A DNA stretch of 60,961 nt. Source: an uncultured Candidatus Saccharibacteria bacterium (lineage in GTDB: Bacteria > Patescibacteriota > Minisyncoccia > Phycocordibacterales > PALSA-1337). The notes beneath the pieces were generated by a model. That model saw only the letters and a program-made list of their open reading frames with translations, was not told the DNA's origin and made no database searches. The first letter of the stretch is position 1. Every line of letters starts with the position of its first letter. This document shows positions 7,143 to 60,911 of the stretch, in pieces. Both the position numbers and the translations under genes were made by a program. The stretch covers positions 1 to 60,961 of the forward strand of contig CAZMFR010000006.1 in NCBI GenBank assembly GCA_964565685.1, written 5' to 3'.

Positions 7143-7208
7143 TTGAAATGTATAATTATTCTAACATGAAAAACATGCACCGGAACCAAGCAGAGCACAA
7201 GCATCGAT

Positions 7209-7260
7209 AATACAAGTCCAAGGGCTACCCTTGTAATACAAGTCCAAGGGCTACCCTTGG
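7209..7260. repeat. 26-bp tandem duplication, each unit containing the CAAGGGCTACCCTTG palindrome (copies 2 and 3)
   Basis: AATACAAGTCCAAGGGCTACCCTTG(T/G) twice. Confidence 0.9.
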
Positions 7261-33435: not shown

Positions 33436-34653
33436 CTATTCTCTGCTCTCAACAATGAAGCTTGCTCTTTTATAGAGCTCGTCAAATGTAATGATGTCTA
33501 TACCATGAATTGACTTACGAAAACGTTGGAAGGTCTCACGTTTACTTCTTTCAGTAGAAATTTCACTCAATAAGCCAATAACGATAATCCCCTTGGGTTG
33601 GACAGTGTAAATATCGTTATTTTCTAATCTATCTCGATTATCGGGTTGTTCAGAACCCTGTTTTTCCCATGTCTGAATATTTGCTCCAATTTGTGATAAT
33701 GCATCTGTTAGCTCCTTAGACAAACTCCATGCACCGTTCCTGATTTCACTATTACCTTGAAGTAAATGTGTTGACGGTCTTTTGATCTCGACAAGTACAG
33801 TAAAGTTTATATCTCCAACAGTAGAGGTTAAAAAATCTCCTCTTTGTCCACCCTGTCCATCAACATGCTGACCGCCGTAGTTTGGCTGAGATTGTTCTTG
33901 CTTCAAGATTTGATAATTTAAACCATATCCAAATATCCACTTATTTTTCTCAAAAAAGTCTTGCCACCAACCTTCATCATTCGATTGACTAGAAATTGCA
34001 GTATTGAATTCAGAAAGTTTCTCACGTCGTTTAAGAACCATATTCAGGTCTTCCTTAGAAAATTGTAGGTCTGGTATTGATGTTGAAAGACTTTTTATAA
34101 TATTCACTACACTTCCTGCATATCGTCCACGCAGTTCAGAAATAATATCTGCTTCATTTTTCGGCACTAGAGCGACAGGTTCTTGTAAAGGAAGTTCTCT
34201 TAAAAGTTCAGTAATAACATTCTGTTTCCTCGCATCAGGCCATTTTCTAATTGCATCTAGAACGTTTTTCTCATTACTATGTATTTTCACAAGATTATCT
34301 TTTTGATCATCAGTAAGTGTAATATTTTCTAATGATATATTTTGTCCGAGAAATGCTTTTAACCTCCCTCCGGTTTTACGTCCTATAGTTATACAGAACT
34401 TTTGATAATCGTCCATATTAATCAGAAAGCCACCATCCACTTTTAAGAAAGGTCTAATGTTCGAGTTGAGTGTAAAATATAGTTTAACTTCTGGGTTTTC
34501 CTGTAGAAAAGGAACTATATTTTGACGATAAAATGGGAAGTCTCTTCGTTTTGTTTTATGATTGAAATAAGTCTGAAAATTGTCTCGTTTATCAAGATAT
34601 AGACTTAATGCTCCGTATGATTCTGAACTGAAATTGTCGGAATTAAATTCCAT
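33436..34653 (-). CDS. sduA: Shedu-type (DUF4263) PD-(D/E)XK nuclease with uncharacterised N-terminal domain
   Basis: FFEKNKWIFG, GDFL...LVEIKRP, ALSQ, KGIIVIG, IITFDELY. Confidence 0.8.
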   Translation of the reverse strand: MEFNSDNFSSESYGALSLYLDKRDNFQTYFNHKTKRRDFPFYRQNIVPFLQENPEVKLYFTLNSNIRPFLKVDGGFLINMDDYQKFCITIGRKTGGRLKAFLGQNISLENITLTDDQKDNLVKIHSNEKNVLDAIRKWPDARKQNVITELLRELPLQEPVALVPKNEADIISELRGRYAGSVVNIIKSLSTSIPDLQFSKEDLNMVLKRREKLSEFNTAISSQSNDEGWWQDFFEKNKWIFGYGLNYQILKQEQSQPNYGGQHVDGQGGQRGDFLTSTVGDINFTVLVEIKRPSTHLLQGNSEIRNGAWSLSKELTDALSQIGANIQTWEKQGSEQPDNRDRLENNDIYTVQPKGIIVIGLLSEISTERSKRETFQRFRKSIHGIDIITFDELYKRASFIVESRE

Positions 34654-34732
34654 AGTAGATAGAAAATAATCTACCATATTTTTGAATATTTTTCAACCTG
34701 ATCCTTGACTAGAATGAATTTAATGAATTTTC

Positions 34733-35509
34733 TTATTTTTTATAAGAATCTACCCGTTTATTTGCTAAATCAACATATTTCTTTTCCTTTTCAATTCCAA
34801 TCCAATTACGGCCTAGAGCTTTTGCAACAACTGCAGTCGTTCCGCTACCTAAAAATGGATCGAGGATTAAATTGCCCTTTTTGCTAGATGCTAATACAAC
34901 TTGCTGTATAAGTTTAAGAGGTTTTTGGGTGGGGTGTAATTTTATTCCATCCGCACCTCTTAATCGCTCATTTCCTCGACAAATAGAAAAATTCCAATCG
35001 GTATCTTTCATTTGTTTTCCACCATTCATCTTTTTTAAAAGTTTGTAATTAAATGTATATCCTTTCGCGGTTTTATTTTTTACAGCCCATATTAAAGTCT
35101 CGTGATTATTAGTCAGTCTCCTGCAGTTTAAATTCGGTAGTGCGCCAATCTTTACCCAGATGACATCATTCAAAAACCATAAACCTAAATCTTGCATTAT
35201 TTTTCCAACACGAAAAATATTATGATACATTCCAATAACCCAAATTGTTCCTGTTGATTTCAAAACTCTTTGACATTCTCTTAACCAATTCTCGGTGAAT
35301 TTATCGCATTCTTCATAACTTTCAAATTTATCCCAATCGTTATCAACCGGTATTACTTCTGAACCATCTGCTCGTTTCAATCTTTTCCCTTTTGGTAATT
35401 GTAAATAATACGGCGGATCTGCAAAAATCAAGTCAAAAGTATTGTCGGGAAATGTCTTTAATATTTCCAAACAGTCGCCATGAAAAATTTTATTAACGTC
35501 TTTAAGCAT
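34733..35509 (-). CDS. Beta-class amino DNA methyltransferase (M.HinfI/CcrM/DpnA-like)
   Basis: LIFADPPY precedes HPTQKP...ILDPFLGSGTT. Confidence 0.92.
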   Translation of the reverse strand: MLKDVNKIFHGDCLEILKTFPDNTFDLIFADPPYYLQLPKGKRLKRADGSEVIPVDNDWDKFESYEECDKFTENWLRECQRVLKSTGTIWVIGMYHNIFRVGKIMQDLGLWFLNDVIWVKIGALPNLNCRRLTNNHETLIWAVKNKTAKGYTFNYKLLKKMNGGKQMKDTDWNFSICRGNERLRGADGIKLHPTQKPLKLIQQVVLASSKKGNLILDPFLGSGTTAVVAKALGRNWIGIEKEKKYVDLANKRVDSYKK

Positions 35510-36630
35510 CAGTAATTCTTTACAATTAAATGTTCGACATCTCGATCATTCCTACCCTTTACGTTGTATAAATAAGTCTTATCAAAGCTAGAAATTGATA
35601 TTTTTGGCTTATTCTTGTACAAATTCAAAATAAAAGGTGTGTTTTTAATAATTAAAATAAACTTTGCTTTTGTGTGATATAGATTCTGAGCTAACCTTTC
35701 TTGATCTTGTTTATCAAAAGACGCTTTTTCGTAATCACTAAAATCAGTATCGTATGGAGGATCAAGAAACATAAAGTCCTTGTCCGTAAAACCATTTTTT
35801 CTGAATATTTCTCCAAAATCTTTATCCTCAATTTTTGCGCCATTAAATAATCGCTCAACTTCATCACTAAAAATATAATCAACTTTACCCCTAAAGTCCT
35901 TTGCGTTATAAGCTATACCGCCATATGGGATGTTAAAGTGTCCGTCTGCGTTAAAACGAAACATTGAAGCATAACAAAACTCTCGAATAAAATAATAATT
36001 CGCTATTTTTTTGGCTAACGATGTCTTATATTTATTTCCATTGAAATTCATCACATCCCTAAAGTGCATATAGAAGCCGCTTCGAAATGCTGTTTCGATA
36101 TTTTTTATCAGATCGCCATCGCCAATTTTTCCTCGTTCTTTTTCAATCTTTTTTACTCTGCCAAGTTTTGAAGTAAGATTTGATATGATTTGTCTCAATA
36201 AATTTTTATCATCTAGACAAAAATCATTATTAAATAGGCCATTAAATCTCTTTTCCTCTGACTCTAAATATTTATTTACTGATTTTTCAAGATCTTCTAT
36301 AGATATTTTATCATCCTTAAAATCAACATATAATTTTATTATCTTGTTTTCAAAAATATCAATATATTTTGGTATTTTTTCCCAATTATCGACATAGTCA
36401 TATAAAGCTTTTTTAAATTCTTTTTTATCTTCTTGGCCTTTTACAAATTTATAAAAATACGTCAGTTCTTCACACACGTCATTTATGATGGCTTTGCGTG
36501 GTTTTAGTTGGAAAAAGACAGCTCCACCGCCAAAGAACGGTTCGATATAGCGATCATATTGGGGGATAATATCTTTAATGTATTCAAACTCTCTTGATTT
36601 ACCCCCCGGCCATTTGATAAGTGGTTGCAT
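35509..36630 (-). CDS. Alpha-class (Dam/D12-like) DNA adenine methyltransferase
   Basis: KWPGGK, YIEPFFGGGAVFF, FRFNADG.FNIPYG, FLDPPY; stop overlaps the next start. Confidence 0.92.
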   Translation of the reverse strand: MQPLIKWPGGKSREFEYIKDIIPQYDRYIEPFFGGGAVFFQLKPRKAIINDVCEELTYFYKFVKGQEDKKEFKKALYDYVDNWEKIPKYIDIFENKIIKLYVDFKDDKISIEDLEKSVNKYLESEEKRFNGLFNNDFCLDDKNLLRQIISNLTSKLGRVKKIEKERGKIGDGDLIKNIETAFRSGFYMHFRDVMNFNGNKYKTSLAKKIANYYFIREFCYASMFRFNADGHFNIPYGGIAYNAKDFRGKVDYIFSDEVERLFNGAKIEDKDFGEIFRKNGFTDKDFMFLDPPYDTDFSDYEKASFDKQDQERLAQNLYHTKAKFILIIKNTPFILNLYKNKPKISISSFDKTYLYNVKGRNDRDVEHLIVKNY

Positions 36631-36635
36631 AATAA

Positions 36636-37454
36636 TTATCCTAAATAAGTTTTCCTTATTGAATCTAACGAAGCTTTAATAAGGCCGGCTTTTTCTTTAT
36701 ACGCTTCAAGCACAATGTTATATCCATCTTTCGATTTACAGACAAAATCCCAGAAATCTTTTCCGATCAAAAGTTCATCATCAGCAAAAAACTGACGTAC
36801 TCTTTCTTGTCGCCACGGCTTACCCTCACCAAAACGATTATAAGCAGTCGCAAAAAATATTTTAATACCAGCGTCCTTTGCCTGTGTATTTGATAAAATA
36901 GCGAATTGTTCCAATAAAGCTTCTTTTTCTGATCGCGCTTTTTTGTTATCAAGATCACCGCCTATTTTTAACTCAATCAAAGATTCTTCGCTTGTTTCTT
37001 TGTCGATTAAATAATAATCGCTATCATGCCTTTTTGTAACGAGTGATTTTTCTGCTGGTTTGATTCTCAAAAATTGATAGTCTTTTATCGTAGGTGGAGT
37101 AATTTCTCTGCGCTTGTATTTTTCTAATAATTCCGCAATATCTTGAGTTTGTTTTAAGCTAAGAGGCCCTTCAACATTTTGTTTAACTTCATACGATAAT
37201 TTGGCAATATTTATTGCCATTTTTTCTAGCATATTACCCAAAGAACTATCAAGTGAACGGACAAGAGCTGTGTAGTATTGTATTTCCGGTCCAAGAACAG
37301 CAATAAAGACATTGTGTATCTTCATATTCAAAGTGCCTTCAGGATCATCCAATTCACCTTCGTGCCTGCCCTGAAAACCGACTGCAAAAGATTCAACGGA
37401 GGCATGGACGATTGATCTTATTGCTTCTTTCTTTTCTAAAGTATTTTGAGACAT
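36636..37454 (-). CDS. TdeIII-family type II restriction endonuclease
   Basis: SLDSSLGNMLE and IELKIGGDLDNKKARSEK motifs recalled from this family; adjacent to two MTases. Confidence 0.75.
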   Translation of the reverse strand: MSQNTLEKKEAIRSIVHASVESFAVGFQGRHEGELDDPEGTLNMKIHNVFIAVLGPEIQYYTALVRSLDSSLGNMLEKMAINIAKLSYEVKQNVEGPLSLKQTQDIAELLEKYKRREITPPTIKDYQFLRIKPAEKSLVTKRHDSDYYLIDKETSEESLIELKIGGDLDNKKARSEKEALLEQFAILSNTQAKDAGIKIFFATAYNRFGEGKPWRQERVRQFFADDELLIGKDFWDFVCKSKDGYNIVLEAYKEKAGLIKASLDSIRKTYLG

Positions 37455-37538
37455 GATAAGTAGTTACCTTGTGTTAAATAATAATTTTCTAAATTATACC
37501 ACCCTTACAATAAAATAGGTATTTTTAGGTGGGTCATT

Positions 37539-37761
37539 CGCGCCAAGAGGTGCGCGGTCGCGGGGGTTGTTTTACGTCCGCTTCATACCACCATACTCTT
37601 TGCGCCTGCGTTATCGGCATGGCGGACGCGCCTCGGTATTGCGAAGCAATTACGAGATAGCGCGGTAGCCATGCGGATATAAGCAAAGGCGCACTACAAG
37701 CTGTTATTGAAGCGGACATACGCTCTGGAGTATGTTCCGCGACCGCGTACTGCTTGGCGCG
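37539..37761. other. Nested rod-like inverted-repeat structure, candidate single-strand origin (sso)
   Basis: Five nested complementary pairs plus a terminal ATTGC-gaa-GCAAT hairpin; GC-rich within AT-rich DNA. Confidence 0.65.
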
Positions 37762-37808
37762 GTGTTGACTCGTTATACATTTTAAAAGTGTAATGATAAA
37801 ATTGTCCT

Positions 37809-38450
37809 ATGAGCCTAAGAGAAGACACAATCAAGTTTTTGGAGATGATCTGCGCCGAGCTAATACCTCGAGAAATTTGTGACGAAGAATTTCAAGAAGT
37901 CACTCTTACTGAAGATGATTTCAAAAAAGAGGGATTCTCCTTGAACTCGGCTATCTCACTGATAAAGGATATCTTTGTTGCGGGTTATATTAAAAATTTT
38001 AATTCTACTTCTAAAGATAACGTCAATACTGTACTATTATCCGTCTCATCTGATATTGAATTCTACACAAAACGGCTGAAATACCCGGAGTTGAAATACC
38101 CAGATATTGAATATGATGAATTCTTAGATCCTATTCTAACCACACCAACAAAAACGAGCATAAAGATCAATTCTAGCAGGGGTATATTTAGAGAAGATAA
38201 TCCAGAATTATGCTATCCACTTAAAATGTCTGCAAGCAGAATGAAAATAGTTCTTTGTCTTCTTAACAAAGACAGAGTTTCACTTTCAGAATTGGGAAAA
38301 AAGACCAAGCAGGCACATGGACTTATCTCAAAAGAAATTCGAGAAATCAATTCTAATTTTAGAAAAAAAGTTATTGATGATGACCTCATTACTCGATTGC
38401 CTACCAATGTATATTCTATCAATAGAGACAAGTTTGACGTAAAAACCTGA
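37809..38450 (+). CDS. Hypothetical protein with probable C-terminal winged HTH
   Basis: IVLCLL...VSLSELGKKT...ISKEIREIN...LIT...YSIN pattern. Confidence 0.65.
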   Translation: MSLREDTIKFLEMICAELIPREICDEEFQEVTLTEDDFKKEGFSLNSAISLIKDIFVAGYIKNFNSTSKDNVNTVLLSVSSDIEFYTKRLKYPELKYPDIEYDEFLDPILTTPTKTSIKINSSRGIFREDNPELCYPLKMSASRMKIVLCLLNKDRVSLSELGKKTKQAHGLISKEIREINSNFRKKVIDDDLITRLPTNVYSINRDKFDVKT

Positions 38451-38559
38451 AGAAAACTTTAAGTAGTTGTTATAAACCTCACTTAAAAGGCCTCTGATAT
38501 GGCCTTTTTTATGTTGGGGTCAACTAGAGGTTACTTGCCGATGATGCCAAGATATTTGT

Positions 38560-38727
38560 ATGCAATCGTTCGATAAATTATTGATCATGCGCATACAAGC
38601 ATATTTCAAAAAGAAATACAGGTTGAGTATTTCTGATGAAACTGCAAACGAGTACCTAGATTCTCTGGGTGGCGTCTTTGCTGTGTTTGCCGAGAGCGGG
38701 GTCGTCGAGGCGGTGCCGCGGGCTTAA
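38560..38727 (+). CDS. Small (55 aa) protein upstream of rep, below the ORF-track cutoff
   Basis: MQSFDKLLIMRIQAYFKKKYRLSISDETANEYLDSLGGVFAVFAESGVVEAVPRA, translated by hand. Confidence 0.5.
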   Translation: MQSFDKLLIMRIQAYFKKKYRLSISDETANEYLDSLGGVFAVFAESGVVEAVPRA

Positions 38728-55144: not shown

Positions 55145-55227
55145 GCCGGGATGGCGGAACTGGCAGACGCACACGACTCAAAATCGTGCGGAGCAATCCA
55201 TGGGAGTTCGATTCTCCCTCCCGGCAC
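55145..55227 (+). tRNA. tRNA-Leu(CAA)
   Basis: GCCGGGA/TCCCGGC acceptor, CAA anticodon, long variable arm. Confidence 0.93.
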
Positions 55228-55287
55228 AACCAAGGCCGACGCGGATGCCTCATAAATCCGCACCAAGTAGGATATAATTTGATAGCT

Positions 55288-55866
55288 ATGACAATTGAGG
55301 AACTCGAGTCAAAACTTGAAGGAGGAGCGGAGACCCAGACATTCGAAGTCAAGGGTCCTTACGACTGGGATGTTAAATCATTGGCAAAAGATATCTTAGC
55401 CATGTCGAATGTTCAAGAAGGGGGCGATCTCGTAATCGGAATTGAAGATGGATCTTTCAAACGTCATGGTGTTACTGCAGCCCAAAAAGCAACCTATAAT
55501 GAAGATATTATGAAGGATCAGATGGCCGCTTACGCAGATCCCCATGTCGACTTTCATGTTTCGTTGGTGATTGATGATGCGAAAAAAGAATATATTGTTA
55601 TCACGGTATTGCCGTTTGAAGAGATACCAGTGATATGCAGAAAAGATGGTTCAGATACCAAGAGAGGCTGTGTATACTATCGAAATAAGAGCGGTCGTGT
55701 CCAAAGTGCACCAGTCTCAAGCTCGTATGACATGCGCGAGATTATTACCAGTGCAACGGCCAAGATGATGAAACGATTGACTCGCATGGGACTTAATACA
55801 GGAGAGAATATCAGTATGGAAATGCGCGTGAGAGAAAAATTGGATAAGGAAATTAAAGACCTATGA
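55288..55866 (+). CDS. Schlafen/AlbA_2-domain protein (stand-alone)
   Basis: ETQTFEVK, KDILAMSN.EGGDLVIGIED, Y.RN motifs. Confidence 0.82.
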   Translation: MTIEELESKLEGGAETQTFEVKGPYDWDVKSLAKDILAMSNVQEGGDLVIGIEDGSFKRHGVTAAQKATYNEDIMKDQMAAYADPHVDFHVSLVIDDAKKEYIVITVLPFEEIPVICRKDGSDTKRGCVYYRNKSGRVQSAPVSSSYDMREIITSATAKMMKRLTRMGLNTGENISMEMRVREKLDKEIKDL

Positions 55867-56579
55867 AAAAGGAACTTCTAGAAAAAATAAAATCTCGCGG
55901 ATATTGGAGGATAAATTTCCAACCTTTAGTTGATGAGATGAAATTGAAATCACTCGGTGATTGTCGTTCTCTTGTTGAAAAGAATCATGTACAACTTCGA
56001 GGATGGAATTATCCTCACTATCCTCGGCGTAAAGGTGATGATACCGATTTGTCGCCTGGCGCTAACTATTACGAGGGTTGGATCGAATGGTACGATCACA
56101 TAGAATTTTGGCGCATGTACCAAAGCGGTCAGTATTTGCACTATCGTGCGCTCAATGACGATTGGGCTGAGCGCAACGGCTGGGATATTGTAGCAAACCA
56201 GACCATTAAACCCGGCGAACAATTGAGTATCGTTGGGGCTACTTACCTGATAACAGAAATATTCCAATTTCTTTCGAGGTTGGCACAAGCAGGTATTTAC
56301 GATGAAGGTGTGCGAGTAAATATATCCCTACGGAATACGAAAGGTAGAGGTCTATCGCTCAATGATCTATCGCGGGGGCCCCTTTGGGAAGAATACAATA
56401 CGACCGCGGAAGAAATTCCATTTTCTGAACAGTACTCTAAAGAGGCATTAATCACAAAGCCCCAAGAACTAGCTCTTGACACGATAGTATTTTTCTTCGA
56501 TAGATTTGGCTGGCATAGACCTAATATAGAGGTAATAAAGAAGGATCAGGATGATCTCTTGAACAGGAGGTGGTTCTAA
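55863..56579 (+). CDS. Hypothetical partner protein translationally coupled to the AlbA_2 gene
   Basis: ATGA overlap; 238 aa, aromatic-rich, no family recognised. Confidence 0.75.
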   Translation: MKKELLEKIKSRGYWRINFQPLVDEMKLKSLGDCRSLVEKNHVQLRGWNYPHYPRRKGDDTDLSPGANYYEGWIEWYDHIEFWRMYQSGQYLHYRALNDDWAERNGWDIVANQTIKPGEQLSIVGATYLITEIFQFLSRLAQAGIYDEGVRVNISLRNTKGRGLSLNDLSRGPLWEEYNTTAEEIPFSEQYSKEALITKPQELALDTIVFFFDRFGWHRPNIEVIKKDQDDLLNRRWF

Positions 56580-57895
56580 TCGATCAAGAGTTTCTTATCC
56601 CTCAGCACTATCCCGCTCTTTATACACGACAACACCTCCCTCTTCTGTAACACCGTCCCGTGTTTCAGCATATGCTTAGCGAAGATCTTGATGCTGACAT
56701 CTTTGTGCTTTTTCGATTGCTTCAGGTCGAGGCCGAGCACCCCTGTCTGGAAGAGCGCATACCGCGCCACCTCTTCCTGTAGCTTGTGCTTGAGCTCACT
56801 TTTGTCTAGACTCATTTTGTCGATGATGGGGAGCATCTCGTCGATGAGAATAGTTTCGCTGACTGACTCATTCGGGCAGTCTCTATCTTTCACCTTTGTG
56901 CATCGGTAGTATATGTGGGCGTTGAAGCCGCCGTCTTTCAGCTCTTTGATCTTTTCCTCGGCCGTGATACCCGATCCGCAATAGGCACAGTGAAACATTC
57001 TCGTGAAGGCGAACTCCCGGCCGTAAGCTTTCTTTTTCTCCACTTTGATCTTTTCCTGCACGGCGTCAAAAAGTTCTTTTGATATGATCGGCGTATGCTT
57101 TCCGGTATACCACTCGCCGCTGTCGACGGGATACTCGAATACGCCGTAGTAGAAGGTCATACGGAGCATGCGGTAGATATTGCCGAGAGTGATGTATTTG
57201 CCGTTCTTGTTCTTGAAGTCGATTTCCTTGAGCCATCGATATATCCTTCTGCCTGAGTAATTTTCATACGCTACTTTCTCGAACATCTGCTTTACCACCG
57301 GTGCGCGTAAAGGGTCTACGATCACCTGACACTTCTCGTCCTTGTTCTTGCTGTTGAGGTATCCCGTCGGCGCTACCGATGGCCGCAGTCCCATGGCCGC
57401 TCTCGCTCGCAATCCTCGTCTCACGTTTATGACTTTGTTATCGTTCTCCAATTTCGCCTGCGACCCTAATATCATCAGCATGAACTTGTCATTCGGCGTG
57501 TTCATGAACTTTTGTCCATACGTGCGTATCTCGACAAGCCTTTTCTGATCCATGAGGTCGACGATCCTGCCGAGGTCGCCTGCGTTACGAGCGATACGGT
57601 CAGGTGCCCATGTCAAGATTCCGTTGAACTTGCCTTGTTTCAGCTCTTCGACGATCTCATTGAATACCGGCCTCTGCCCAGCCTCTTTGGCCGAATGAGA
57701 CTCCTTTTTCCTGATCGCTATCTCCAGTCCGTCATTCGCTGCCATCTTCTCCATCTCCGCTATCTGGCTATCGATGGACAGTACCTGCTTGTCCTCTTGC
57801 TCCGTCGATTTTCTCGCGTAAAGGCAGTATTTCACCTTTACAGGGCTTGCTGGTTTTGCCGTCAGCCCCACTGGCATTTGTGTTGTTTGTATCAT
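56576..57895 (-). CDS. Large serine recombinase
   Basis: LYARKSTE catalytic Ser, PDRIARN, PTGY, CAYCG/YYRCT zinc ribbon. Confidence 0.93.
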   Translation of the reverse strand: MIQTTQMPVGLTAKPASPVKVKYCLYARKSTEQEDKQVLSIDSQIAEMEKMAANDGLEIAIRKKESHSAKEAGQRPVFNEIVEELKQGKFNGILTWAPDRIARNAGDLGRIVDLMDQKRLVEIRTYGQKFMNTPNDKFMLMILGSQAKLENDNKVINVRRGLRARAAMGLRPSVAPTGYLNSKNKDEKCQVIVDPLRAPVVKQMFEKVAYENYSGRRIYRWLKEIDFKNKNGKYITLGNIYRMLRMTFYYGVFEYPVDSGEWYTGKHTPIISKELFDAVQEKIKVEKKKAYGREFAFTRMFHCAYCGSGITAEEKIKELKDGGFNAHIYYRCTKVKDRDCPNESVSETILIDEMLPIIDKMSLDKSELKHKLQEEVARYALFQTGVLGLDLKQSKKHKDVSIKIFAKHMLKHGTVLQKREVLSCIKSGIVLRDKKLLID

Positions 57896-57992
57896 ACGAC
57901 ACAATGAATGACGCAGACCCGATGGGGAGTCTACTATGGGCTGTTGGTAAGCTGTTGACAACTTTTTGCCTCAAAACCCTTGATTTTCCTCA

Positions 57993-59075
57993 TCATTCTT
58001 TGACCCAATACCAAAAAAGACTCTCCACCTCTTGTGCTAACCCATGTGCATCGGCGTGAGAAAGAACGCCAAGATATGATCGCAACGATCCCTTCAGAGT
58101 CGCTTCGCTGATTCGCCCATTCTTGAATCGAGTGACTTGCTCTCTCAGTTTCCTCATCATCCGCTTTTTTGTTTTCGTCCTGACAACAGTATGGTATGGT
58201 AGTACGACATAGCCGAGAAAGTCGATGCCACGGGTACACCGCCGAATCTCGACCTTTCGTGGATGGAGTTCGAGAAGCAGTTTTTCTTCGAGAAATGTTC
58301 TGATCGGTGGCAGGATTTTTTGCAAGTATTCAACATCATCGGAAATGATGACAAAGTCATCCGTATACCGCGCGTAATTTTTTACCTTAAGCTCATGCTT
58401 CACAAATTGATCAAACTCATTCATGTAGACATTAGCGAAAAGCTGGGAAGTAAGATTCCCTATGGGAATGCCTTTTCGGCGCGGAGCGCCGAGTACTCTC
58501 TCTCTCTCTCTCTCTCTCTCTCGCAAAATGCCGCTAGAATAGCTTTCTATGATTTCCTTAAGGAGCCACCGTGCCTCTGCATCTTTCAGTCTCTTGGTCA
58601 TTATTTCAAACAGTATGTCATGGTCGACACTGTCGAAGAATTTCCGTATGTCGCATTTGAGGACAAAACAAGGACGAGTGTAATTGGCACTCACTTTTCT
58701 GACCGTGTCTCGCAGATACAGCATTCCTCGATGGGTGCCTTTGCCGATCCTGCAGGAAAACGAGGTGGGGATGAATGTCGGCTCGAATATGGGGTTCAAT
58801 ACCTTGAATACCGCATGGTGGAGAACGCGATCTCTGACGCTCGCTTTGTAAATATGCCTCAGTTTCGGATCGCGTATCCAAAATGGCTGGTACGGCCCGT
58901 GTCGGTAGGTATGATGCCTGAGTTCCCGATACAGTCGAAAGATTTCTTGTTCAAGTTGCCGCTCGAACCCTGCCACGTCTGGCTTGTTCCTTTTGTCGCG
59001 CTTGAACGCATCCCACGCAGAGAGAATGGTATCCGGCCGAATTATTGAATCATAAATTTTAGTATATATTCTCAT
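57993..59075 (-). CDS. DGR reverse transcriptase
   Basis: RDRVLHHA, LKCDIRKFF, GIPIGNLTSQLFAN (DGR-type SQ), YARYTDD, GIDFLGY. Confidence 0.95.
   Translation of the reverse strand: MRIYTKIYDSIIRPDTILSAWDAFKRDKRNKPDVAGFERQLEQEIFRLYRELRHHTYRHGPYQPFWIRDPKLRHIYKASVRDRVLHHAVFKVLNPIFEPTFIPTSFSCRIGKGTHRGMLYLRDTVRKVSANYTRPCFVLKCDIRKFFDSVDHDILFEIMTKRLKDAEARWLLKEIIESYSSGILRERERERERVLGAPRRKGIPIGNLTSQLFANVYMNEFDQFVKHELKVKNYARYTDDFVIISDDVEYLQKILPPIRTFLEEKLLLELHPRKVEIRRCTRGIDFLGYVVLPYHTVVRTKTKKRMMRKLREQVTRFKNGRISEATLKGSLRSYLGVLSHADAHGLAQEVESLFWYWVKE
58496..58522. repeat. 27-nt (CT)n/(AG)n microsatellite inside the RT gene
   Basis: Encodes RERERERER just before GIPIGNLTSQ. Confidence 0.95.
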
Positions 59076-59081
59076 AAAAAT

Positions 59082-59441
59082 ATGAACCACATGGACAACC
59101 TTGATATTCCGATATTCAGAAAAACATACGACCTATACAAGACATTTTACGGTTTCCGGGGAAGCGTTCCCAAGCAAGACAGATATACCATCTGGCAGAG
59201 GTGTGAAACGCTCATCCTCGAAATCTTAGAAGGGCTCCTCTATGCCAGCCAGACATCGAAAGCCGAAAAGCTGCCGATGCTCGAAAGAACGAGCGTGAAG
59301 CTCAACTTTCTCCGCATATTCGTGCGGCTCATGAAAGACACCAAAGCCGTCGACGAGAAAAAGTATCTCATCCTCGAAAGCTCGATCGACGAGATTGGCC
59401 GAATGCTGGGCGGTTGGATCAAGTCGACGAAAGACCGATAG
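59082..59441 (+). CDS. avd: DGR accessory variability determinant (four-helix bundle)
   Basis: IFRKTYDL...PKQDRY...LNFLRIFVRL...EIGRMLGGWIK; lies between TR and RT. Confidence 0.88.
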   Translation: MNHMDNLDIPIFRKTYDLYKTFYGFRGSVPKQDRYTIWQRCETLILEILEGLLYASQTSKAEKLPMLERTSVKLNFLRIFVRLMKDTKAVDEKKYLILESSIDEIGRMLGGWIKSTKDR

Positions 59442-59470: not shown

Positions 59471-59487
59471 CAGGATGGAGACGACTG

Positions 59488-59602
59488 CCGGGAGGACGAG
59501 ACGCCGAGATTGTCGTTCACGTTGTCGTCGTTGTAGTTGTTGACATTGAGGCCATCGGCATCGAACTTGCCGACGTTCACGCGGTTGCCGTCCGAGTCGA
59601 GA
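59488..59602 (-). repeat. DGR template region (TR)
   Basis: AAC-rich; 101 of 115 positions identical to VR; 28 adenines on the minus strand. Confidence 0.95.
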
Positions 59603-59951: not shown

Positions 59952-60737
59952 TCAAGATTCCAACTTCCGGGAGGACGAGACGCCGAGACTGCCGCCCACG
60001 CTGTCGTCGTTGTAGTAGTCGACAACGAGGCCATCGGCACCGAACCCGCCGACGCCCACGCGGTTGCCGTCCGAGTCGAGATCGGAACAACGCACGTAGA
60101 GCTTCTCGAACAGGCGTTCGCCGGTGGCGAGGAAGTGGCCGATGATGGTGTAAACCATGATCTGAGCCTTCGGCGTCTCCTCGATCTTGCCGTCGAGCAA
60201 CGCTTGCTGCTGACTCCACGTCTTCGACAGGGAGTCGCTCACGGGAGTCTTTCGAACGAGCTGCCACTCAAGCTTGCCTCTTTCGTTGGCGAAGGCTTGG
60301 CTGTCATACCAGTCCTGGCTGTAGAAGAAGCTCTTCTGGCTTTTCGGCAGTCTCATGGCCGTAGCGTATGACCGGATCTGCACGATCGAGAGCGGCATGA
60401 CTGCCACCAGGATGTGGGTATCCTTGCACGCTTGGAGCGTGGTTTCCGAGAACGGAATCTCGCTCATGTAGGCGATCTGCCGCTTGGAGAAGCTCATGCC
60501 GAAGTGCTTCATGGCTTCCTCGAGGCCGAAGAAGTTCGTGCCCATGATTTCCTTGGCGCGAGCTTGGTTGGTCGAGAGTTCGAAGCCGCCGTTTCGGCAC
60601 AGGGATGCCACGCGAGTGGCAACCGTGTCGTCGGTGTTAATCCGCTCCACGATTCCGTCGGCTTGATCGCCGAATGCGACCATCAGCCGTTGGAACGCGC
60701 CGTTTATCTGACCGCTGGGTATTTCTGTCCATTTCAT
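59952..60737 (-). CDS. DGR target (variable) protein, probable C-terminal CLec-like fold
   Basis: VR at the extreme C-terminus ending LGVSSSRK; no signal peptide; alternative GTG start at 60752. Confidence 0.9.
   Translation of the reverse strand: MKWTEIPSGQINGAFQRLMVAFGDQADGIVERINTDDTVATRVASLCRNGGFELSTNQARAKEIMGTNFFGLEEAMKHFGMSFSKRQIAYMSEIPFSETTLQACKDTHILVAVMPLSIVQIRSYATAMRLPKSQKSFFYSQDWYDSQAFANERGKLEWQLVRKTPVSDSLSKTWSQQQALLDGKIEETPKAQIMVYTIIGHFLATGERLFEKLYVRCSDLDSDGNRVGVGGFGADGLVVDYYNDDSVGGSLGVSSSRKLES
59967..60081 (-). repeat. DGR variable region (VR)
   Basis: 14 substitutions versus TR, all at A (12 A>G, 2 A>T). Confidence 0.95.
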
Positions 60738-60911
60738 AACTTTGCCTTTCACTGTTAGCCCTTTTTATCGGGCGACTGTTTCGGACATACGATTCCGATG
60801 TTGTTAGTACGGCCGTCTATGAGACGAGCTTATTGAGGCCTAATCTAAGCCGCAAAAAGCTCGTCTCATATGTCTTTTGAATCTTGAATGACAATGATCT
60901 TTACTGAAAAC

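What the first reader, a model, noticed from the sequence alone, without database searches (positions are those of the whole stretch)
58496..58522. (AG)13 slippage tract in the RT gene, a possible phase-variable ON/OFF switch for hypermutation
Seen: a pure 27-nt dinucleotide run, the only long one I saw in the window, encoding RERERERER upstream of the SQ motif and the YTDD catalytic site. It is currently in frame. Gain or loss of one or two units would truncate RT before catalysis; three units keeps the frame. Established: simple-sequence repeats drive phase variation. Inference: a stochastic switch lets subpopulations turn diversification on or off, a contingency locus controlling a mutator.
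Basis: partly seen in the sequence, partly recalled or inferred. Interest (0 to 1): 0.78.

Follow-up and report, generated by a model that had tools for sequence, protein, structure and literature searches.

The report
Repeat-tract on/off switch in mutator gene
A 27-base AG repeat inside the reverse-transcriptase gene of a bacterial targeted-mutation system (a DGR) is real, and in hundreds of related genomes the same repeat gains or loses single AG units that knock an otherwise intact gene out of frame, so it very likely works as a heritable, reversible on/off switch for the cell's own protein-diversifying machinery.

Summary
Window 58496-58522 is a pure 27-nt (AG)13.5 run on the minus strand and the only long simple repeat in the 61 kb. 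It lies in frame inside the reverse transcriptase (RT) of a complete DGR: RT, bAvd, and TR/VR with 14/14 adenine-specific mismatches.

The tract is a disordered loop insertion between RT motifs 3 and 4, absent from the solved Bordetella RT.
- Of 216 classifiable unique alleles, only 47 (22%) are in frame.
- Both RT halves stay intact and equally conserved in the other 169.
- 123 of 130 assessable shifted alleles become a full-length ORF after adding or removing one AG unit.
- Three contig pairs are identical over 3.7-4.9 kb except for one AG unit.
- 1.49 Mb of flanking DNA holds no other dinucleotide repeat of 12 nt or more.

The window's allele is ON. Not shown: read-level heterogeneity, switching rate, and whether RNA-level slippage lets OFF alleles leak. 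I found no prior report. The closest precedent is the (AG)n-switched Mycoplasma Type III mod gene.

The parts
58496..58522 (-). (AG)13.5 dinucleotide tract, the proposed slipped-strand switch; currently in frame (ON) and encoding RERERERER
57993..59075 (-). DGR reverse transcriptase gene (ATG at 59075; the mechanical ORF extends to a GTG at 59090)
   Evidence: Pfam RVT_1 E=6.7e-24; best PDB match is the Bordetella DGR bRT 8ub7, E=8e-49; homologue alignment A1
58443..58466 (-). RT motif 4, PIGNLTSQ (the DGR-type SQ motif), 30 nt downstream of the tract; lost in all out-of-frame simulations
58356..58367 (-). YTDD catalytic box (RT motif 5), lost when the tract is out of frame
59082..59441 (+). 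bAvd accessory gene on the opposite strand; its ATG is 6 nt from the RT ATG
   Evidence: Pfam PF22296 bAvd E=2.6e-16; same arrangement next to P0001 and P0002
59484..59602 (-). Template repeat (TR)
   Evidence: 119-nt direct repeat, 87% identical to VR; all 14 internal mismatches are at TR adenines
59963..60081 (-). Variable repeat (VR) at the 3' end of the target gene
59952..60752 (-). DGR target gene (266 aa, no Pfam hit) carrying the VR at its C-terminus

Best explanation
The (AG)n tract is a hypermutable simple-sequence repeat in a dispensable surface loop of the DGR reverse transcriptase. Slipped-strand mispairing during DNA replication adds or removes AG units. Every change that is not a multiple of three units moves the catalytic half of the RT (motifs 4-7, including YTDD) out of frame and gives a truncated 200-220 aa product. 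The next slip can restore the frame. The tract is therefore a heritable, reversible ON/OFF (phase-variation) switch on DGR mutagenesis. Lineages can diversify the target protein while ON and keep a working variant while OFF. The window's allele (27 nt) is ON.

Shown directly: the tract and its frame; its position in a loop insertion; its conservation as a DNA repeat across a CPR-wide RT clade; length polymorphism, including single-unit differences between otherwise identical contigs; a majority of out-of-frame but otherwise intact alleles.

Inferred: that the variation arises by replication slippage at high rate within populations; that RT activity and VR diversification follow the frame; that the arrangement is maintained by selection for switchability.
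For: (1) The tract is real, pure and unique in the window.
(2) The DGR is complete, with 14/14 adenine-specific TR/VR mismatches.
(3) The tract lies in a 23-residue insertion (query 182-204) that replaces residues 173-175 of solved bRT 8ub7. It is the only internal low-confidence segment of a pLDDT 85.7 model. Loop length varies freely among homologues.
(5) Two independent frame calls (motif regex and tblastn) agree: 47 in frame, 92 shifted one way and 77 the other, out of 216 unique alleles.
(6) Shifted alleles keep both halves open and as conserved as in-frame ones. 123/130 become a full-length ORF with a single AG unit change, in every tract-length class. Both wrong frames stop before YxDD in 211/216.
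(7) Five groups with identical flanks differ by exactly one unit. In three pairs that 2-nt indel is the only difference over 3660-4863 nt.
(8) There is no other dinucleotide repeat of 12 nt or more in 1.49 Mb of flanking DNA.
(9) Relatives found by protein search encode the loop as pure AG (25-26 nt; every R is AGA, every E is GAG) at about 70% protein identity.
(10) Shifted loci carry diversified TR/VR pairs as often as in-frame loci, 60/115 vs 20/35.
(11) An OFF/OFF pair has 13 substitutions and none in VR. An OFF/ON pair has 19 of its 64 substitutions in the 132-nt VR, 18 of them at TR-adenine positions.
(12) Precedent: (AG)10/12 switching of the Mycoplasma mmyCImod gene, with TAA directly after the tract (PMC3498834); here 65/216 alleles have TAAA after the tract.
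(13) Saccharibacteria show no evidence of MutS/MutL (PMC8406219), which would raise slippage rates.
Against: All data are consensus assemblies, and no reads were available. The one-unit differences between otherwise identical contigs come from assemblies within the same studies, some at low coverage, so PCR stutter could have decided a few consensus calls. In-frame alleles are rarer than the 1/3 expected from random lengths (47/216, p=2e-4), which simple neutral switching does not predict. Short tracts of 6-8 units, which are expected to slip slowly, are mostly OFF yet undecayed. That fits fast switching, but it fits an RNA-level bypass equally well. The link between frame and VR change rests on a single pair. 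The window's own population could not be examined: its exact RT is not in the protein collection and its nearest relative is 72% identical.
Confidence: 0.7

Rival explanations
1. RNA-level recoding. The RT is made from any DNA frame because RNA polymerase (transcriptional slippage) or the ribosome (+/-2-nt re-pairing of tRNA-Arg from AGA to AGA) slips on the tract. The tract encodes RE in every frame, so the shift is silent. The tract would then set RT dosage (a rheostat or attenuator) rather than acting as a binary genetic switch. This could also coexist with DNA-level switching.
For: In-frame alleles are not enriched and are even depleted. All 24 assessable short-tract OFF alleles are undecayed, which is easiest to explain if OFF alleles are still expressed. 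The tract is longer than a 9-bp RNA:DNA hybrid. Two-nucleotide transcription deletions are concentrated in dinucleotide repeats in E. coli (PMC5574713). No stop codon can occur inside the tract in any frame.
Against: Both shift directions and the in-frame state all occur (92/77/47), so there is no fixed programmed direction. There is no stimulatory structure specific to shifted alleles: downstream z is about -1 in all three classes and upstream about -0.2, and the window fold has z=+1.23. DNA-level length changes are directly observed. In the E. coli data, deletions did not increase with repeat number. An OFF/OFF pair showed no VR change despite 13 substitutions elsewhere.
Confidence: 0.15
2. 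Non-adaptive mutational hazard. The loop tolerates any insertion, an AG run expanded there by slippage, and the resulting frameshifts are accidental, mildly deleterious or neutral inactivations of a dispensable element. There is no selected switching function.
For: The loop is disordered and variable in length. 98 of the 120 best full-length homologues work without the tract. Apparently stabilised or degenerate versions exist (P0047, P0055, P0114). Sporadic RT inactivation in otherwise intact DGRs has been described (PMC3521204).
Against: A hazard should be removed by interrupting point mutations. Instead the tract stays pure across relatives of 55-72% protein identity and many CPR classes. 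It is the only such repeat in 1.49 Mb. 95% of OFF alleles have no second lesion, so they are not on a path to decay.
Confidence: 0.1
3. Sequencing or assembly artefact. The tract lengths in assemblies are wrong (PCR stutter, k-mer collapse), and the genes are really in frame.
For: Dinucleotide repeats stutter in PCR-amplified libraries. Several contigs have 2-6x coverage. Tracts longer than the assembler's k cannot be sized.
Against: The out-of-frame majority holds for 12-16-nt tracts (37/43), which are shorter than any assembly k-mer and barely stutter. Both shift directions are about equally common, whereas stutter is biased towards contraction. Identical out-of-frame lengths recur in independent assemblies and samples that differ by SNPs: L011/L163 (35 nt) and L002/L034 (18 nt). 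The result replicates in two collections.
Confidence: 0.03

Closest known systems
Phase-variable Type III mod genes of Mycoplasma, (AG)n in the coding region, e.g. mmyCImod AG12 (OFF) / AG10 (ON) (PMC3498834)
   Same: The same repeat unit (AG) at similar copy number inside the ORF of a cytoplasmic enzyme. Homologues carry tracts of various lengths, several of them out of frame. A TAA stop lies directly after the tract in wrong frames. ON/OFF depends on unit number.
   Different: The gene controlled is a DGR reverse transcriptase, not a methyltransferase. The hosts are CPR/Patescibacteria rather than Mollicutes. No clone-to-progeny switch or activity assay exists for the RT.
Classical contingency loci (SSR phase variation in Haemophilus, Neisseria, Campylobacter, Helicobacter; Moxon et al., cited in PMC3521204; review PMC11868660)
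   Same: An uninterrupted SSR in an ORF, frame toggling by unit changes, a large OFF fraction among genomes, OFF alleles otherwise intact, and the SSR standing out against the genome background.
   Different: Those loci mostly control surface structures or restriction-modification in host-adapted pathogens, with many loci per genome. Here there is one specific site, in environmental ultra-small bacteria, and the output is the activity of a second, targeted hypermutation system.
Bordetella phage BPP-1 DGR (bRT-Avd, PDB 8ub7) and canonical DGRs
   Same: RT with an IGxxxSQ motif and YxDD, an Avd accessory protein, TR/VR with adenine-specific changes, and VR at the 3' end of the target gene.
   Different: bRT has a 3-residue connector where this RT has a 23-residue insertion holding the repeat. 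avd is inverted here, the arrangement Wu et al. report for 90% of CPR DGRs (PMC5758913). No SSR control is described for any DGR in the papers I could search.
Sporadically inactivated DGR RTs with intact TR/VR (Schillinger et al. 2012, PMC3521204)
   Same: RT ORF broken (including by frameshift) while the rest of the cassette looks recently active.
   Different: Those were isolated, heterogeneous lesions (nonsense mutation, IS insertion, frameshift) read as recent inactivation. Here the lesion is always at one conserved repeat, is reversible by one unit, and is present in most members of the clade.
Transcriptional-slippage / frameshift recoding (IS elements, dnaX; own knowledge), and transcription indels in repeats (PMC5574713)
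   Same: A repetitive run inside an ORF, with the downstream part in another frame in most genomes.
   Different: Known cases use homopolymer or heptanucleotide slippery sites and a fixed shift direction conserved among homologues. Here all three frame relations occur and no dedicated stimulator was found.

Membership tests
Diversity-generating retroelement (DGR) | RT with DGR-type motif 4 ([I/L]GxxxSQ) and YxDD catalytic box | tested here: met
   PIGNLTSQ and YTDD are present and invariant in 29 aligned homologues; RVT_1; best PDB hit is DGR bRT 8ub7, E=8e-49
Diversity-generating retroelement (DGR) | TR/VR repeat pair whose differences fall at TR adenines | tested here: met
   119-nt repeat at 87% identity; 14/14 internal mismatches at TR adenines
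Diversity-generating retroelement (DGR) | VR at the 3' end of a target ORF, plus an Avd-type accessory gene | tested here: met
   VR 59963-60081 ends 9 nt before the stop of ORF 59952..60752; bAvd PF22296 E=2.6e-16
Diversity-generating retroelement (DGR) | Demonstrated mutagenic retrohoming | not testable with these tools
   Needs an experiment or read-level VR diversity data
SSR contingency (phase-variable) locus | Uninterrupted SSR inside the ORF, so that unit changes shift the frame | tested here: met
   Pure 27-nt AG run; +/-1 or +/-2 units truncate and +/-3 units preserve the protein
SSR contingency (phase-variable) locus | Tract length polymorphic among (near-)identical alleles | tested here: met
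   Met for relatives: 5 of 14 identical-flank groups differ by one unit, and three pairs have 0 substitutions over 3.7-4.9 kb. Not testable for the window's own population, because no second copy exists in the collections
SSR contingency (phase-variable) locus | OFF alleles otherwise intact and restored by a unit change | tested here: met
   169/216 alleles shifted with both halves open; 123/130 restored by one unit, in all length classes
SSR contingency (phase-variable) locus | SSR stands out against the genome background | tested here: met
   Only SSR over 10 nt in the 61-kb window; 0 other dinucleotide runs of 12 nt or more in 1.49 Mb of related loci
SSR contingency (phase-variable) locus | High-frequency, reversible switching within a clonal lineage | not testable with these tools
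   Needs reads, time series or a reporter assay
SSR contingency (phase-variable) locus | Phenotype (RT activity, VR diversification) follows the frame | tested here: inconclusive
   One contrast only: OFF/OFF pair with 0 VR changes vs OFF/ON pair with 19 VR changes, 18 at TR adenines
Programmed ribosomal frameshift | Fixed shift direction conserved among homologues | tested here: not met
   In frame 47, one direction 92, the other 77
Programmed ribosomal frameshift | Stimulatory RNA structure a few nt downstream, specific to shifted genes | tested here: not met
   Same modest z (about -1) in in-frame and shifted alleles; it comes from the palindromic IPIGN codons about 25 nt away; window z=+1.23
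Transcriptional-slippage recoding | mRNA heterogeneous in tract length relative to the DNA | not testable with these tools
   Needs paired RNA and DNA reads; plausibility only from PMC5574713
Split (two-polypeptide) RT | Dedicated start codon for the C-terminal half in shifted alleles | tested here: not met
   Start codon between tract and PIGN in 32-43% of shifted vs 30% of in-frame alleles, so no real enrichment

The most novel reading that the evidence does not exclude
Out-of-frame alleles are the normal working state. Full-length RT would then be produced by +/-2-nt slippage of RNA polymerase or of the ribosome on the (AG)n run. The shift is silent because the tract encodes Arg-Glu in every frame and AGA re-pairs with AGA two bases away. 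This would be a previously undescribed dinucleotide-repeat recoding mechanism that sets a low dose of a mutagenic enzyme across a whole bacterial superphylum, layered on top of DNA-level switching.
Probability: 0.15. Interest if true: 0.9.

Novelty: new variant of a known kind. Interest (0 to 1): 0.82.

Why it matters
How DGRs are regulated, and how a cell stops mutating a target once a good variant is found, is largely open. A built-in, heritable, reversible switch in the RT gives a concrete and testable answer for a very large group of DGRs: diversify while ON, lock in while OFF. It also places one stochastic mutation device (an SSR) in control of another (a retroelement mutator).

It would also be, to my knowledge, the first contingency-type locus described in CPR/Patescibacteria, organisms thought to use DGRs to adapt their attachment to hosts.

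There is a practical consequence. About four in five tract-bearing RT genes are split into two ORFs in assemblies. Protein-based DGR surveys probably undercount CPR DGRs or call them dead, and activity estimates that ignore the frame will be confounded.

Tried and rejected
- Viral contigs: the tract-plus-motif pattern gave 0 hits, so this is a cellular (CPR) feature rather than a phage one.
- Exact-protein look-up of the window's RT found nothing on record, and the nearest relative is 72% identical. The window's own population variation could therefore not be examined.
- Pseudogene decay: rejected. Both halves are intact and equally conserved in shifted alleles.
- k-mer collapse or stutter artefact: rejected as the main cause (short-tract bins, both shift directions, reproducibility across assemblies).
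- Split RT with its own internal start codon: no real enrichment of start codons.
- Directional programmed frameshift with a stimulatory structure: no fixed direction and no specific structure.
- Selection on the RE peptide rather than on the DNA: rejected. Protein-found relatives use only AGA/GAG codons.
- Literature: eight searches and look-ups in Wu 2018 and Schillinger 2012 found no report of an SSR in a DGR RT. The Paul et al. 2017 CPR-DGR paper is not held, so I cannot exclude a mention there.
- DNA for the closest relative P0001 was not available.

Full report
OBSERVATION. Window 58496-58522 is an uninterrupted 27-nt CT run on the plus strand, which is (AG)13.5 on the minus strand. It is the only simple-sequence repeat longer than 10 nt in the 60,961-nt window: the next dinucleotide run is 10 nt and no homopolymer exceeds 8 nt. 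It lies inside the minus-strand ORF 57993..59090. That ORF is 365 aa, and the ATG that aligns with the homologues' starts is at 59075. The tract encodes RERERERER at about residues 190-199. It is in frame, upstream of PIGNLTSQ (58443-58466) and YTDD (58356-58367). Simulated gain or loss of one or two units gives 208-220 aa products lacking both motifs. Three units either way keeps the protein intact.

CONTEXT. The ORF is a reverse transcriptase (Pfam RVT_1). Its best solved relative is the Bordetella phage DGR RT (8ub7, E=8e-49). A bAvd gene (59082-59441, plus strand) abuts it head to head. A 119-nt repeat pair, TR 59484-59602 and VR 59963-60081, lies upstream, and all 14 internal mismatches fall at TR adenines. 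The VR closes a 266-aa target ORF (59952..60752). This is a complete DGR with avd inverted, the arrangement Wu et al. report for 90% of CPR DGRs (PMC5758913). The rest of the window is ordinary chromosome: aminoacyl-tRNA synthetases, topoisomerase I and a helicase.

WHERE THE TRACT SITS IN THE PROTEIN. The alignment to bRT breaks exactly at the tract. Query residues 13-181 match bRT 9-172 and query 205-356 match bRT 176-320, so about 23 residues here replace a 3-residue connector between RT motifs 3 and 4. In an AlphaFold model with mean pLDDT 85.7, residues 187-189 and 194-202 are the only internal low-confidence segment. Among homologues the loop ranges from absent (349-aa proteins, loop ...SRPNLFERRG) to long RE runs. 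The tract is therefore in a dispensable, length-tolerant surface loop, a place where in-frame length changes are harmless.

THE TRACT IS A CLADE-WIDE FEATURE. Many 55-72% identical homologues from Patescibacteria MAGs have RERERE at the same position. I then scanned public DNA with a frame-agnostic pattern, (AG)6, then 15-45 nt, then back-translated PIGNLTSQ. The pattern matches the window once and matched 0 times in 100 shuffles. Viral contigs gave nothing. The named genomes are almost all CPR lineages, including Saccharibacteria, Paceibacterota, Berkelbacteria, Wolfebacteria, Doudnabacteria, Peregrinibacteria, Uhrbacteria, Yanofskybacteria and Nomurabacteria. Pure AG runs range from 12 nt (the search floor) to 71 nt, with a median of 21 nt.

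MOST ALLELES ARE OUT OF FRAME, AND ONLY AT THE TRACT. I compared the frame of the upstream RT motifs 1-3 with that of PIGNLTSQ in two independent ways, a motif regex and tblastn with the two halves of the window's RT. The two methods agree.
- After removing duplicates there are 231 unique alleles, of which 216 are classifiable: 47 in frame (22%), 92 shifted one way and 77 the other.
- The shifted genes are not decaying. The N-terminal half is open for a median of 189 codons before the tract. The C-terminal half is open for at least 125 codons after PIGN in 99% of them. Identity to the window's RT is the same as for in-frame alleles.
- Adding one AG unit to one shifted class, or removing one from the other, restores a full-length ORF in 70/73 and 53/57 assessable alleles, 123/130 or 95% overall. 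This holds in every tract-length class, including 24/24 of the 12-16-nt tracts.
- In 211/216 alleles both wrong frames terminate before the YxDD box, so OFF means no catalytic domain.
- The out-of-frame majority is present in both collections (in frame 21/107 and 25/108). It is also present for 12-16-nt tracts (6/43 in frame), which are shorter than any assembler k-mer.

DIRECT EVIDENCE OF LENGTH CHANGE. Fourteen groups of loci share identical flanks, 150 nt upstream and 200 nt downstream of the tract. In five of them the members differ by exactly one AG unit, which changes the frame state. Over the whole shared contig length, three pairs have no substitution at all and a single 2-nt gap:
- L194/L216: 29 vs 27 nt, OFF vs ON, 4863 nt aligned.
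- L062/L191: 27 vs 25 nt, 4108 nt aligned.
- L042/L164: 20 vs 18 nt, ON vs OFF, 3660 nt aligned.
The tract therefore changes faster than any other position in several kilobases. Conversely, identical OFF lengths recur in assemblies that differ by SNPs: L011/L163 at 35 nt and L002/L034 at 18 nt. This argues against random assembly error.

SPECIFICITY, AND DNA VERSUS PEPTIDE. The 1.49 Mb of DNA in the 240 loci contains 245 AG runs of 12 nt or more. All of them are at this one position in the RT. There is no other dinucleotide repeat of that length and only one homopolymer of 10 nt or more. Two close relatives found by protein search, and so not selected on DNA, encode the loop as pure AG runs of 26 and 25 nt with only AGA and GAG codons, at about 70% protein identity. 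What is conserved is the DNA repeat, not merely a charged peptide.

LINK TO DGR ACTIVITY. Among loci of at least 4 kb, a TR/VR pair with at least 80% adenine-specific mismatches was found in 60/115 shifted and 20/35 in-frame loci. These proportions are similar and are limited mostly by contig ends. OFF loci are thus complete DGRs that diversified in the recent past. One contrast is suggestive but anecdotal. L002 and L034, both OFF, differ by 13 substitutions over 8.2 kb with none in the VR. L002 (OFF) and L024 (ON) differ by 64 substitutions over 3.4 kb, 19 of them inside the 132-nt VR and 18 of those at TR-adenine positions.

MECHANISM AND RIVALS. The best-supported reading is classical slipped-strand phase variation: a heritable, reversible frameshift switch on the RT and hence on mutagenic retrohoming. 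The window's allele is ON.
- A directional programmed ribosomal frameshift is not supported. All three frame relations occur. The modest downstream RNA structure is the same in in-frame and shifted alleles, and it stems from the palindromic I-P-I-G-N codons about 25 nt away.
- A split RT with its own start codon is not supported.
- Assembly artefact is unlikely for the reasons given above.
- A purely neutral hazard is hard to reconcile with the purity, exclusivity and phylogenetic breadth of the tract, although 98 of the 120 best full-length homologues do without it.
- The rival I cannot dismiss is RNA-level slippage. The tract reads RE in every frame, AGA can re-pair with AGA two bases away, and 2-nt transcription deletions cluster in dinucleotide repeats in E. 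coli (PMC5574713).

Two observations remain unexplained and keep the RNA-level idea alive. In-frame alleles are rarer than one third (47/216, p=2e-4). Short, presumably slower tracts are mostly OFF yet undecayed. Fast slippage in lineages lacking mismatch repair would also explain the second point: no MutS or MutL was seen in Saccharibacteria (PMC8406219). Selection against prolonged ON states would explain the first.

COMPARISON WITH WHAT IS KNOWN. Mechanistically this is an SSR contingency locus. The nearest precedent is the Mycoplasma Type III mod gene. There, (AG)12 is OFF, (AG)10 is ON and active, a TAA follows the tract, and homologues carry various and often out-of-frame lengths (PMC3498834). 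Here 65/216 alleles have TAAA directly after the tract. Sporadic RT inactivation in otherwise intact DGRs was noted by Schillinger et al. (PMC3521204), but as isolated, heterogeneous lesions. In eight full-text searches and the DGR surveys I could read, I found no description of a repeat-controlled DGR RT, nor of SSR phase variation in Patescibacteria. The main CPR-DGR paper (Paul et al. 2017) is not in the library, so this is absence of evidence in what I could search.

VERDICT. A rough extrapolation follows from 22 tract-bearing among the 120 best full-length homologues, combined with a 22% in-frame rate. It suggests that about half of the genes in this RT clade may carry the tract. I class it as a new variant of a known kind: a DGR gated by an SSR switch, or equivalently a contingency locus whose output is another mutator. 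What is missing is read-level, transcript-level and experimental confirmation.

Noticed in passing
window 59075-59084: The RT ATG (59075, minus strand) and the avd ATG (59082, plus strand) are only 6 nt apart, head to head, so each gene's promoter must lie inside the other's coding region. A TR-to-RT transcript would run antisense through avd. P0001 and P0002 have the same arrangement, consistent with the avd/TR-orientation variant (architecture B3) that Wu et al. report for 90% of CPR DGRs.
   Followed up: partly
window 55145-57961: Directly beside the DGR lie a tRNA-Leu(CAA), a Schlafen/AlbA_2-domain ORF that overlaps the tRNA, an unannotated 238-aa ORF and a large serine recombinase (56576-57961). 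The DGR may sit on, or next to, an integrated element.
   Followed up: no
window 34000-41150: An AT-rich island (GC 0.32-0.36 at 34-38 kb vs about 0.46 elsewhere) contains a D12-class adenine methyltransferase (35509-36630). A second large serine recombinase (39522-41108) overlaps tRNA-Gln (41078-41149). This is probably another integrated element.
   Followed up: partly
window 7208-7259: A perfect 26-nt tandem duplication (TAATACAAGTCCAAGGGCTACCCTTG x2), TRF score 104.
   Followed up: no
window 58452-58466 and all related loci: The invariant I-P-I-G-N codons (ATT CCC ATA GGG AAT) form a perfect 6-bp hairpin. The 45 nt downstream of the tract are more structured than shuffles in all allele classes (mean z about -1). 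This may simply follow from the peptide motif.
   Followed up: partly
L121:4770-4864 (Wolfebacteria RIFOXYD12_FULL_48_21); L227 (Berkelbacteria): Extreme tracts of 71 nt and 55 nt of pure AG, both out of frame. Lengths this great may exceed the assemblers' k-mers, so they are uncertain.
   Followed up: no
L059:587-779: Two copies of the tract-plus-PIGNLTSQ segment lie 120 nt apart on a 1.5-kb contig (tracts of 21 and 23 nt). This is a tandem duplication or an assembly artefact.
   Followed up: no
L124/L164, L157/L209, L153/L167, L214/L233: Several genomes carry two tract-bearing RT genes. The states were OFF/OFF, OFF/OFF, OFF/OFF (opposite shift directions) and ON/ON. Independent switches could give combinatorial control of several DGRs.
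   Followed up: partly
L132, L133, L147, L150, L186, L191, L194, L210, L216, L225, L228, L236, L237: MAGs labelled Gammaproteobacteria, Bdellovibrionales, Actinomycetota or Syntrophorhabdaceae carry this CPR-type RT with the tract. These are most likely mis-binned or mislabelled contigs. Horizontal transfer was not examined.
   Followed up: no
alignment A1: P0015 vs P0040: Two Nomurabacteria RTs have near-identical N-terminal halves, but one has the RE tract and the other has the tract-less PSLFKRRG loop with a different C-terminal half. This hints at recombination, or repeated gain and loss of the tract.
   Followed up: no
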